Source of the DNA: Spirochaetia bacterium
GTDB taxonomy: Bacteria > Spirochaetota > Spirochaetia > SZUA-6 > Bin103
DNA length: 64,000 nucleotides
NCBI GenBank assembly: GCA_965203905.1
Contig: CBDBDQ010000005.1
Location: 3,552,001-3,616,000 of the forward strand
Reading direction: 5' to 3'
How positions within the stretch are numbered: position 1 is the first letter of the stretch; each line of letters starts with the position of its first letter. The notes under the pieces are model-generated. The model searched no databases. It saw only the letters and a list, made by a program, of their open reading frames with translations, and was not told the DNA's origin. Positions 5,624-5,707 of the stretch are shown piece after piece. Made by a program: the position numbers and the translations under genes.

Positions 5624-5707
5624 TGCCGGCGGTGGGAGTTGAACCCACATGCCCCTACAGGCGACCGCTCCCAAAGCGGTTGTGTCTACCAATTCCACCA
5701 CACCGGC
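5624..5707 (-). tRNA. tRNA with tRNA-Leu body and UGG (Pro) anticodon; CCA not encoded
   Basis: GCCGGTG TG GTG-GAATTGGTAGA-CAC A ACCGC-TTTGGGA-GCGGT CGCCTGTAGGGGCAT GTGGG-TTCAACT-CCCAC CGCCGGC A. All stems pair; long variable arm; A73. Confidence 0.92.

What the first reader, a model, noticed from the sequence alone, without database searches (positions are those of the whole stretch)
5624..5707. Intact tRNA-Leu scaffold with a proline (UGG) anticodon
Seen: Leu-type D arm GTGGAATTGGTAGACAC with A14, A15 and A20a, U48, a long variable stem-loop (GCCT-GTAG-GGGC), A73 and G1:C72; anticodon loop UU-UGG-GA; no broken stems. Established: bacterial tRNA-Pro has C1:G72 and a short variable loop, and ProRS needs G72. 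Inference: charged with Leu and reads CCA/CCG. Caveat: it is one substitution from tRNA-Leu(UAG), so alone it could be a point mutant or an assembly error.
Basis: partly seen in the sequence, partly recalled or inferred. Interest (0 to 1): 0.85.

Follow-up and report, generated by a model that had tools for sequence, protein, structure and literature searches.

The report
Mobile leucine-type tRNA with proline anticodon
This is an intact extra tRNA with the body of a leucine tRNA and a proline anticodon, sitting on a small acquired island; its relatives ride on jumping genes in many bacteria and match particular proline codons in those genes.

Summary
On the minus strand at 5707..5624 lies an intact 84-nt type II tRNA: Leu-type D arm, long variable arm, A73, G1:C72, anticodon UGG.

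It is neither an assembly error nor a lone point mutant:
- Contigs from a second sample give the same letters.
- The genome keeps a full normal Leu and Pro tRNA set.
- The gene lies on a roughly 3-4 kb low-GC insertion that two same-genus genomes lack.
- A genome of another genus has an 80%-identical copy with compensatory changes and the same anticodon.

Leu-type tRNAs with UGG recur in 60 public loci. Many are cargo of IS1595-family elements, inside terminal inverted repeats, beside a small coiled-coil/winged-helix protein.

A search by transposase alone found 51 such tRNAs beside 80 transposase genes: 47 UGG, 2 GGG, 1 AGG, 1 GUC. A conserved Pro codon near residue 22 of the transposase tracks the anticodon. 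It is CCA in 44 of 47 UGG elements, CCT in all 3 GGG/AGG elements, and mixed where no tRNA was found. So the family decodes Pro codons on the ribosome.

The amino acid carried is unresolved. Leu is predicted from the scaffold, but Pro cannot be excluded.

The adjacent 'Arg-CCG' tRNA has G3:U70 and A73, the alanine identity marks.

The parts
5624..5707 (-). Type II (Leu-type) tRNA gene with anticodon UGG; the finding
   Evidence: ARAGORN. Rfam 55 bits. All stems intact. 94 bits on model R1. No differences in contigs of three runs.
5714..5784 (-). Second odd tRNA, 6 nt upstream on the same strand. It is 71 nt with anticodon CCG (Arg). The acceptor stem has G3:U70 and A73. The D arm is Gln-like, U20 replaces A20, and the anticodon stem has two mismatches.
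   Evidence: ARAGORN and Rfam 56 bits. Acceptor GGGGAAG/CUUCUCC, found in the G3:U70 screen. D arm and 3' anticodon stem match tRNA-Gln(CUG) of relatives. The host has a separate normal Arg(CCG).
5087..5542 (-). P0001, 151 aa, starting 82 nt downstream of the tRNA on the same strand. It has a long N-terminal helix and a C-terminal winged helix.
   Evidence: No Pfam family. AF2 pLDDT 87.6, helix 12-76 plus a winged helix. Foldseek best matches are forkhead, Rok DNA-binding domain and RpoE, E 0.03-0.2. The ORF in the same position in G017 is weakly similar (BLASTP E 4e-5). Profile E 0.001. hhalign probability 40%.
4713..5090 (+). P0002, a 125-aa ORF of unknown function, convergent with P0001, inside the low-GC stretch
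   Evidence: ORF list. No Pfam family. It holds one CCA and one CGG codon, which is too little to interpret.
3319..3792 (-). Fragment of a Mutator-family transposase
   Evidence: PF00872 E 7.1e-10, covering profile positions 215-298 of 379 only.
2980..6047 (.). Strain-specific insertion that carries all the parts above (bounds approximate). The lowest GC, 51-52%, is at 4001-6000, against 66% for the genome.
   Evidence: GC profile. Flanks 7018-6175 and 2237-1403 are 85-88% identical to same-genus G001 and G004, the interior is not, and neither has a tRNA there.
6042..6124 (.). Diverged duplicate of part of the 5' end of the RlaP gene, at the right edge of the insertion
   Evidence: Direct repeat 2085-2113 / 6042-6070, 83% identical. 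Window 6124-6047 aligns inside the RlaP region of G001 and G004.
1561..2259 (-). RlaP-family nucleotidyltransferase gene; conserved left flank
   Evidence: PF10127 E 2e-41. Orthologues at 89% identity in G001 and G004.
6240..6998 (-). HpcH/HpaI aldolase gene; conserved right flank
   Evidence: PF03328 E 2.2e-20. Orthologues at 83-86% identity in 5 of 5 same-genus genomes.

Best explanation
The gene is a functional, horizontally acquired tRNA. It belongs to a widespread mobile family of leucine-type (type II, A73) tRNAs that carry proline anticodons.

In most public examples the tRNA is cargo of an IS1595-family insertion sequence, together with a small coiled-coil/winged-helix protein. There it is used on the ribosome to read a few designated proline codons of the element's own transposase. 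Those codons are CCA for UGG tRNAs and CCU for GGG/AGG tRNAs.

In this window the tRNA sits without such a transposase on a roughly 3-4 kb low-GC insertion. With it are a winged-helix protein of the same architecture and a second mismatched tRNA that has alanine identity marks and the anticodon CCG.

What is shown: the gene, its intact fold, its acquired and mobile setting, the conserved anticodon, and codon-anticodon covariation in the IS-borne relatives.

What is inferred: the host LeuRS, which does not read the anticodon, charges the tRNA with leucine. It would then put Leu at CCA, and less well at CCG, in competition with the host tRNA-Pro. This would be deliberate, probably low-level or regulated, Pro-to-Leu recoding. 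The neighbour tRNA would do the same for CGG, giving Arg-to-Ala.

My odds:
- real functional member of the mobile family: 0.9
- decodes Pro codons in translation: 0.75
- carries Leu: about 0.5
For: 1) Intact tRNA
- Rfam 55 bits and all stems paired.
- Across 28 UGG tRNAs of this type, 17 of 20 stem pairs change on both sides, with 164 such cells and 0 of 500 shuffles as high. The rows had been pre-filtered for intact stems, so the 99% paired figure is partly circular.

2) Extra and acquired
- The host has Leu UAG/GAG/CAG/CAA/UAA and Pro UGG/CGG/GGG elsewhere.
- The surrounding stretch is low-GC.
- The insertion is absent from G001 and G004 at the same site.
- P0001 was found in 1 of 92 genomes of the order, G000 itself.
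- The D-arm/UGG pattern was found in 1 of 401 genomes of the phylum sample, again G000.

3) Not an error
- Contigs of three runs from two samples show no difference.

4) Recurrence
- G017, of another genus, has an 86-nt copy. It is 80% identical over 79 nt, with different acceptor and anticodon stems that still pair, and the same UGG.
- 60 loci of 137 pattern hits hold intact Leu-type UGG tRNAs.

5) UGG is special on this scaffold (same D-arm pattern, reference genomes)
- UGG: 9 intact of 15 hits.
- UCG/UUG: 0 intact of 12 hits.
- All other NGG/NGA: 3, plus 1 doubtful, of 30 new hits.

6) Cargo of a transposon
- 30 of 60 loci have an IS1595 transposase (PF12762, E 6.7e-45) next to the tRNA.
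- Terminal inverted repeats with a shared core enclose small ORF + tRNA + transposase. They are 22/22 in L104/L149 and 22/23 in L056, and the motif is at one or both ends in more loci.

7) Test not biased by anticodon
- Among the best 80 of 292 transposase relatives, model R1 finds 51 type II tRNAs within 1.7 kb of the transposase gene.
- Anticodons: UGG 47, GGG 2, AGG 1, GUC 1. A73 in 50 of 51. G1:C72 or G:U in 48 of 51.

8) Codon-anticodon covariation
- At the '(I/L)P.AC' column, UGG elements have CCA 44, CCT 3, CCG 0. GGG/AGG elements have CCT 3 of 3 (Fisher p 0.001). Elements with no detected tRNA have CCA 15 of 29 (p 3.5e-5).
- A second column: CCA 16 of 16 against 7 of 21 (p 2e-5).
- That column is the second most codon-biased of 166 tested.
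- CCA makes up 31% of Pro codons in the transposase genes against 16% in 104 flanking ORFs.

9) Evidence for Leu
- The scaffold cannot be told from real Leu tRNAs.
- E. coli Leu identity rests on A73 and A14, and the anticodon arm is dispensable for aminoacylation. C1:G72 is a strong determinant for E. coli ProRS (PMC9976931, passages).
- The host ProRS is the bacterial type.
- Companion tRNAs exploit synthetases that ignore the anticodon: G3:U70 with CCG here, G3:U70 with ACG in L266, a Leu-type with UGA in L025, and a Leu-type with GUC in L233.
- C33 occurs in 6 of 51 family members. Non-U33 is noted in natural mistranslating tRNAs (PMC11415595, passages).
Against: - No aminoacylation or expression data exist. 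No RNA run was listed.
- The window has no IS1595 or IS1 transposase next to the tRNA and no copy of the repeat core. The designated-codon logic therefore cannot be shown here and is carried over from relatives.
- The similarity of P0001 to the IS-borne small proteins is weak: pairwise E 4e-5, profile E 0.001, hhalign probability 40% over 30 columns.
- Against Leu: the designated CCA columns remain Pro (28 of 29 at the main column), or D/E/S, and never Leu, in relatives without a tRNA. There is no Pro at 7 conserved Leu columns. Proline therefore looks like the working residue there, and Leu insertion would probably damage the transposase.
- G35, G36 and A73, all kept, are also ProRS determinants.
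- The statistics treat related elements as independent.
- Some metagenome cases (L077, L085, L088) sit in ordinary tRNA clusters, in the slot of Leu(UAG). They may be plain variants or errors.
Confidence: 0.5

Rival explanations
1. A type II tRNA that is nevertheless charged with proline, through G35, G36 and A73. It would be a private supply of a CCA reader that gates or speeds translation of the element's own genes in GC-rich hosts, where CCA is rare. From memory, this resembles the rare-codon control by bldA tRNA in Streptomyces.
For: - NGG is kept in 50 of 51 transposase-linked tRNAs.
- The designated codons lie at positions that stay Pro without the tRNA.
- CCA is enriched in the transposase rather than avoided.
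- A few members have C1:G72: 3 of 51 and 6 loci.
Against: - The Leu-type body and G1:C72 are kept in most members across phyla. The host ProRS is the bacterial type, for which C1:G72 is a strong determinant in E. coli.
- LeuRS would still charge the tRNA unless unknown blocking features exist, and none is visible.
- A plain tRNA-Pro copy would do the job.
- Companion tRNAs with UGA, GUC or G3:U70 plus an Arg anticodon cannot be explained this way.
Confidence: 0.25
2. The tRNA-like gene works outside decoding. It could be an RNase P/Z processing signal, a transcription insulator between convergent genes, a binding site for the winged-helix protein or the transposase, or an attachment site.
For: - Its position is fixed next to the transposase stop codon: 29 of 51 are convergent at a median of 33 nt.
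- A subclass has 30-51 nt variable arms, and 7 of 51 lack GG in the D loop.
- Allo-tRNA(UAU) species near transposon genes were thought to be untranslated (PMC5389517 and PMC7609411, passages).
Against: - The anticodon is conserved and covaries with a 3-nt codon. No longer complementarity surrounds that codon, because the neighbouring codons vary freely.
- The full tRNA fold and A73 are kept.
Confidence: 0.12
3. A decaying duplicate of a Leu(UAG) tRNA with a chance A35G change and no function.
For: - It is one substitution from a Leu anticodon.
- A transposase fragment and a diverged duplication lie nearby.
- The neighbour tRNA has two anticodon-stem mismatches.
Against: - All four stems are perfect.
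- It is only 58-62 of 84 identical to the host Leu tRNAs, against 80% to the G017 UGG tRNA.
- UGG is enriched over the other position-35 changes.
- The family is conserved and shows covariation.
Confidence: 0.06
4. A sequencing or assembly error at the anticodon.
For: Depth is low, about 3-6 in the contigs.
Against: The letters are the same in contigs of three runs from two samples. G017 and many other records carry UGG on the same scaffold.
Confidence: 0.01

Closest known systems
tRNA-ProX with ProRSx of Streptomyces and Kitasatospora (PMC11415595, passages)
   Same: Natural bacterial tRNAs whose body and anticodon disagree. They are accessory genes thought to cause deliberate mistranslation, and they have an unusual position 33.
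   Different: There a Pro body carries Ala, Asn or Thr anticodons and comes with a dedicated synthetase. Here a Leu body carries a Pro anticodon. No synthetase gene was seen among the 10 ORFs scanned. The carrier is a transposable element.
tRNA-Ser(CAG) and tRNA-Ala(CAG) of CUG-clade yeasts (PMC11415595 and PMC7609411, passages)
   Same: A synthetase that ignores the anticodon charges a tRNA that reads another amino acid's codon. In some species the reading is dual.
   Different: Those are chromosomal, lineage-wide code changes in eukaryotes. This is a rare mobile accessory gene beside a complete normal tRNA set.
Allo-tRNAs (8/4 or 9/3) of soil bacteria (PMC5389517, passages)
   Same: Odd tRNAs with many anticodons, found near toxin-antitoxin or transposon genes in environmental bacteria. 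Some insert Ser or Ala at other codons in E. coli.
   Different: Allo-tRNAs have a 12-bp acceptor branch split 8/4 or 9/3 and Ser or Ala identity. This one is a standard 7/5 Leu-type cloverleaf. That paper's text holds no 'UGG' or 'tRNALeu'.
bldA tRNA-Leu(UAA) and rare TTA codons in Streptomyces (recalled; no call)
   Same: One tRNA is matched to a rare codon placed in particular genes of a GC-rich host.
   Different: bldA is a correct Leu tRNA of the host chromosome. Here the tRNA travels with its target gene and has a mismatched body.
tRNA genes carried by phages
   Same: A mobile element brings a tRNA that fits its own codon usage.
   Different: In the viral collection the D-arm/UGG pattern gave 3 hits, one of which (L037) passed the cloverleaf check. 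Phage tRNAs normally keep matching identity (recalled).

Membership tests
Bacterial tRNA-Leu (LeuRS substrate) | Discriminator A73 | tested here: met
   A73. Present in 50 of 51 family members.
Bacterial tRNA-Leu (LeuRS substrate) | A14 (with U8) and a Leu-type D arm and loop | tested here: met
   U8 and A14 are present. The D-arm string is identical to host Leu(GAG) and Leu(UAA). Their role as identity elements is from PMC9976931 (passages).
Bacterial tRNA-Leu (LeuRS substrate) | Long variable arm (type II) on a 7/5 cloverleaf | tested here: met
   15-nt variable region; acceptor 7/7; T stem 5/5.
Bacterial tRNA-Leu (LeuRS substrate) | A leucine anticodon (NAG or YAA) | tested here: not met
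   The anticodon is UGG.
Bacterial tRNA-Leu (LeuRS substrate) | Charged with Leu by LeuRS | not testable with these tools
   Needs an aminoacylation assay.
Bacterial tRNA-Pro (ProRS substrate) | G35, G36 and A73 | tested here: met
   Loop UUUGGGA and A73.
Bacterial tRNA-Pro (ProRS substrate) | C1:G72 | tested here: not met
   The focal tRNA has G1:C72. The host's three Pro tRNAs start with C and have G72.
Bacterial tRNA-Pro (ProRS substrate) | Short variable loop and a G15:C48 Levitt pair | tested here: not met
   The variable arm is long and position 15 is A. The feature list is from PMC9976931.
IS1595-borne type II tRNA(NGG) family (defined here) | Leu-type scaffold with an NGG anticodon | tested here: met
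IS1595-borne type II tRNA(NGG) family (defined here) | Lies beside an IS1595 transposase, inside terminal inverted repeats | tested here: not met
   No transposase remnant by tblastn and no copy of the repeat core in window 1-12000. The IS1595-like fragments in G000 lie elsewhere.
IS1595-borne type II tRNA(NGG) family (defined here) | Adjacent small coiled-coil plus winged-helix protein | tested here: inconclusive
   The architecture is present and a shared C-terminal motif was seen. Sequence links are weak.
IS1595-borne type II tRNA(NGG) family (defined here) | A designated cognate Pro codon in a partner gene | tested here: inconclusive
   P0001 has CCA at codon 4 and P0002 has one CCA. No DNA of homologues was available for comparison.
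tRNA-Ala identity (for the neighbour tRNA, 5714-5784) | G3:U70 in a fully paired acceptor stem, with A73 | tested here: met
   Apart from two copies of tRNA-Ala (L088) and this tRNA, 7 other calls among the 204 ARAGORN tRNA calls in all loci passed the screen. Two of them are like it: L266 (ACG) and L179 (CAG). Sufficiency of G3:U70 for AlaRS is from PMC7954030 (passages).
Allo-tRNA | 8/4 or 9/3 acceptor/T-stem split | tested here: not met
   The split is 7/5.
tRNA-ProX/ProRSx system | Pro-type body, non-Pro anticodon, and an adjacent ProRS paralogue | tested here: not met
   The body is Leu-type. No synthetase domain was found in the 10 ORFs scanned in window 20-9480.

The most novel reading that the evidence does not exclude
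A transposable element encodes its own recoding tRNA. This would be a leucine-charged tRNA with a proline anticodon that rewrites, or doses, a few designated CCA codons of its transposase. Translation-level missense recoding would then control transposition through a rare codon used as a private channel. In this window a two-tRNA cassette (Leu body with UGG, Ala marks with CCG) would impose Pro-to-Leu and Arg-to-Ala substitutions on a GC-rich host.
Probability: 0.33. Interest if true: 0.95.

Novelty: new variant of a known kind. Interest (0 to 1): 0.85.

Why it matters
Natural tRNAs whose body and anticodon disagree are rare, and each case has changed how fixed the genetic code is thought to be.

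Here the mismatch is not a lone oddity. It is a conserved, mobile gene family found across several phyla, among them Proteobacteria, Acidobacteriota, Planctomycetota, Gemmatimonadota, Chloroflexota and Verrucomicrobiota by record titles. Its anticodon co-varies with single codons in a partner gene.

That makes two questions directly testable with simple reporters and mass spectrometry:
- Do bacteria and their transposons use programmed missense decoding?
- How far does anticodon recognition by ProRS compete with body recognition by LeuRS?

If Leu is inserted, this would be the first transposon-encoded recoding device that I found any trace of. If Pro is inserted, it would be a type II tRNA-Pro, which is also unreported in the papers I searched.

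I found no description in print in searches, nor in the passages read.

Tried and rejected
- Recoded transposase (CCN used where Leu is needed): rejected. There are 0 Pro residues at 7 conserved Leu columns in 80 transposases, and all 80 frames are open.
- Avoidance of CCA at structural prolines because of the tRNA: not supported. CCA is equally low at those columns with a UGG tRNA (18 of 189) and without a detected tRNA (8 of 100).
- Antisense pairing of the anticodon loop with the mRNA: rejected. The codons around the designated CCA vary freely.
- Small-protein genes: no column fixed for CCA. IS1-like transposases (3 sequences): no such column.
- Transposase remnant in the window: none by tblastn with all context ORFs.
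- Viral collection. The D-arm/UGG pattern gave 3 hits, none called by ARAGORN, though L037 passed my checker. The neighbour-type pattern gave 19 hits, none with a paired acceptor stem, apparently tRNA genes interrupted in the anticodon loop.
- Promoter and terminator scan of 4900-6300: counts no higher than in shuffles.
- RNA evidence: no RNA holder listed.
- Small-share run X4: it covers only 5414-5564 and 5938-6050, not the tRNA.
- P0001 homologues: only 3 close ones in 5.8 billion proteins. Foldseek found no PDB match at E <= 0.001.
- Host taxon: not determined.
- The exhaustive representative search, the complex predictor and the protein atlas were not used.
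Full report
**1. What is at the coordinates**

The finding lies on the minus strand. Read 5707 to 5624, it is an 84-nt tRNA. ARAGORN calls it tRNA-Pro(tgg). Rfam's tRNA model scores it at 55 bits, against a gathering score of 29.

The acceptor stem (7/7, G1:C72), the anticodon stem (5/5) and the T stem (5/5) are all perfect. The discriminator is A73 and the anticodon loop is UUUGGGA. The variable region has 15 nt with a stem. The D arm equals that of the host's own tRNA-Leu(GAG) and tRNA-Leu(UAA).

**2. Error or lone mutant?**

Logan contigs of three runs, from two samples of one study, cover the gene with no difference. 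These are contigs at depth about 3-6, and one sample may be the assembly's source.

The genome (8.0 Mb, 66% GC) has 58 ARAGORN tRNA calls. They include five Leu isoacceptors and three ordinary Pro tRNAs, so the focal gene is an extra.

It is only 58-62 of 84 identical to the host Leu tRNAs. It is 80% identical over 79 nt to a tRNA in G017, which is in the same family but another genus. The G017 tRNA has different acceptor and anticodon stems that still pair, and it also carries UGG.

**3. Setting in the window**

GC falls to 51-52% at 4001-6000.

The flanking genes are conserved at 83-89% in same-genus genomes. They are an HpcH aldolase and an RlaP nucleotidyltransferase. The aldolase has an orthologue in all five genomes asked and RlaP in G001 and G004. 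The interior between them is not shared. G004 has no low-GC insert at this site, G001 has a different one, and neither has a tRNA there. A diverged duplicate of part of the RlaP 5' end marks the right edge.

The insertion holds five things:
- a Mutator transposase fragment;
- two small ORFs;
- the focal tRNA;
- a second tRNA 6 nt upstream of it.

P0001 starts 82 nt downstream of the tRNA. It folds as a 65-residue helix followed by a winged helix (pLDDT 87.6). Its weak structural matches are forkhead, Rok and RpoE DNA-binding domains. P0001 was found in none of the other 91 genomes of the order.

**4. The neighbour tRNA**

It is 71 nt, scores 56 bits, and has the anticodon CCG. Its acceptor stem has G3:U70 under A73, the alanine identity marks (rule from PMC7954030, passages). 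Its D arm and 3' anticodon stem resemble tRNA-Gln(CUG) of relatives. It has U20 where Arg tRNAs have A20 (that rule is recalled). Its anticodon stem has two mismatches. The host has a normal Arg(CCG) elsewhere.

In a screen of 204 tRNA calls in all loci held, two similar non-Ala cases appeared:
- L266: anticodon ACG, the same D-arm type, near an IS1595 transposase.
- L179: anticodon CAG, in a locus that also has a Leu-type tRNA with CGG.

**5. How common is the type?**

I scanned for a D-arm-plus-anticodon pattern.
- Reference genomes: 15 hits, of which 9 are intact Leu-type UGG tRNAs from several phyla.
- Viral scan: 3 loci.

In all, 60 loci passed a cloverleaf check, giving 57 distinct sequences. 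About half have an ordinary variable arm of 11-24 nt. The rest have one of 30-45 nt, which ARAGORN misses.

Controls with the same D-arm pattern in reference genomes:
- UCG/UUG: 0 intact of 12 hits.
- All other NGG/NGA: CGG once, GGA once, AGA once and one doubtful UGA among 30 new hits.

UGG is therefore by far the commonest foreign anticodon on this scaffold.

Three metagenome cases (L077, L085, L088) sit in ordinary tRNA clusters. They may be simple variants or errors.

**6. The tRNA is transposon cargo**

In 30 of 60 loci an IS1595-family transposase lies next to the tRNA, usually convergent. It matches PF12762 at E 6.7e-45 and also PF12760. Three loci, including G017, have an IS1-like transposase instead.

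Inverted repeats with a shared core (GTATGTAC...CGAAA) enclose small ORF, tRNA and transposase as one 1.6-2.1 kb unit. They are perfect, 22/22, in L104 and L149, and 22/23 in L056. The same motif is at both ends in L102 and L116, and at one end in about ten more loci.

The small ORFs fall into several sequence groups. One group has the same build as P0001 and a shared C-terminal motif. The sequence link to P0001 is weak.

**7. A test not biased by the anticodon**

I searched reference genomes with the transposase alone. This gave 292 relatives, of which the best 80 were kept. A covariance model built from 28 UGG tRNAs found 64 matches in those 80 loci. Of these, 51 are type II tRNAs within 1.7 kb of the transposase gene.

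Their features:
- anticodons: UGG 47 (one in an 8-nt loop), GGG 2, AGG 1, GUC 1;
- A73 in 50 of 51;
- pair 1:72 is G:C in 43, G:U in 5 and C:G in 3;
- position 33 is U in 45 and C in 6;
- position 37 is A in 28 and G in 23.

Stem covariation across the 28 training sequences is strong. Of 20 pairs, 17 change on both sides, and 0 of 500 shuffles score as high. Those rows were pre-filtered for intact stems.

**8. Codon-anticodon covariation**

Pro codons in the 80 transposase genes are 31% CCA. In 104 flanking ORFs the figure is 16%. Other four-fold families show little shift.

The excess sits in a few columns.
- The invariant Pro of an N-terminal '(I/L)P.AC' motif, near residue 22. With a UGG tRNA: CCA 44, CCT 3, CCG 0. 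With a GGG or AGG tRNA: CCT 3 of 3. Without a detected tRNA: CCA 15, CCG 9, CCT 3, CCC 1, CGG 1. Fisher p is 0.001 and 3.5e-5.
- A linker column: CCA 16 of 16 against 7 of 21 (p 2e-5).
- A C-terminal column: CCA 24 of 27 against 11 of 17 (p 0.07).

The first column is the second most codon-biased of 166 tested. A distant IS1595 subgroup of 7 sequences has two other Pro columns that are 6/6 and 5/5 CCA.

Structural prolines (the CPxC, IPLRH, GKPR and KTPV motifs) use CCA rarely, whether or not a tRNA is present.

Related sequences are not independent, so these p-values overstate the case. Still, the three non-UGG elements carry clearly different tRNAs.

I read this as evidence that the cargo tRNA decodes these codons on the ribosome.

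**9. Which amino acid?**

*For Leu:*
- The body cannot be told from real Leu tRNAs.
- E. coli Leu identity rests on A73 and A14, and the anticodon arm is dispensable for charging. C1:G72 is a strong ProRS determinant in E. coli (PMC9976931, passages).
- This host has the bacterial ProRS type.
- G1:C72 is kept in most of the family.
- Companion tRNAs use other anticodon-blind identities.
- Some members have C33, and non-U33 is noted in known mistranslators (PMC11415595, passages).

*For Pro:*
- The kept G35, G36 and A73 are ProRS determinants.
- The designated columns stay Pro, never Leu, without the tRNA.
- No Pro occurs at conserved Leu columns.

If Leu is inserted, it probably yields altered or inactive transposase, which would be a form of self-control. 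If Pro is inserted, the tRNA is a private reader of a rare codon. I put Leu at about 0.5, Pro at about 0.25, and other readings at the rest.

**10. Comparison with what is known**

The nearest known things are tRNA-ProX/ProRSx, the CUG-clade yeast tRNAs, allo-tRNAs, and rare-codon control by bldA (the last recalled). None has a Leu-type body with a Pro anticodon, a transposon carrier, or codon covariation with a partner gene.

My six literature searches and the passages read show no description of it. Supplements were closed.

**11. Verdict**

It belongs to a mobile family that acts in decoding. In this window the transposase partner is missing, so the local role of the two-tRNA cassette is inferred from relatives.

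Noticed in passing
window 5714-5784 (-): A tRNA with anticodon CCG but with G3:U70 and A73 (alanine marks), a Gln-like D arm, U20, and two anticodon-stem mismatches. It may read CGG as Ala.
   Followed up: partly
L179 451..380 and near 7052-7079 (reference MAG titled Candidatus Amphirhobacter): One locus holds a 72-nt tRNA with G3:U70/A73 and anticodon CAG, plus a Leu-type type II tRNA with anticodon CGG. This could be a real code change or a pair of mistranslators.
   Followed up: no
L025 1962-2048 (-): Directly next to the Leu-type UGG tRNA lies a second Leu-type tRNA with the anticodon UGA (Ser).
   Followed up: no
L233 2071-2144 and 2173-2259 (+): Just upstream of an IS1595 transposase lie a Leu-type type II tRNA with anticodon GUC (Asp) and a class I tRNA with AGU (Thr). 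This is the only transposase-linked case without a Pro anticodon.
   Followed up: no
L266 5503..5432 (-): A 72-nt tRNA with G3:U70, A73, the same Gln-like D arm as the window's neighbour tRNA, and anticodon ACG. It lies 2 kb from an IS1595 transposase.
   Followed up: partly
L028, L031-L033, L042, L072, L079, L095, L102, L104, L116 and others: A subclass of the UGG tRNAs has a 30-51 nt variable arm with internal pairing. ARAGORN does not call them. Seven of 51 transposase-linked members lack GG in the D loop.
   Followed up: partly
L204 4124-4207 (-); L030 7-90 (-): Leu-type tRNAs with irregular anticodon loops around UGG: an 8-nt loop in L204, and a 6- or 8-nt loop in L030.
   Followed up: no
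L270 3464-3539 (-): A class I 76-nt tRNA with anticodon UGG and U73 sits at the usual cargo position, right after the transposase stop codon.
   Followed up: no
G000:C5:4211301-4211376 and 4214149-4214924: ARAGORN calls a 'tRNA-Stop (tta)' with an Arg-like body. It lies about 3 kb from a broken IS1595-like transposase copy in the same genome.
   Followed up: no
window 18001-20000: A second low-GC stretch (48-52%) in the window; not examined.
   Followed up: no
L316 about 3000-4700 (G001): The same intergenic site in a same-genus genome holds a different low-GC insert, so the site may be an insertion hotspot.
   Followed up: partly
window 4175-4192 and 5577-5594: An 18-nt inverted repeat, 89% complementary, brackets P0002 and P0001 just downstream of the tRNA. 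It may be chance.
   Followed up: no
L021, L022, L027, L172, L177, L183 and others: Many pattern hits appear to be tRNA-Leu genes interrupted right after the anticodon's first bases, probably by group I introns. That reading is my own from the sequence and was not tested.
   Followed up: no
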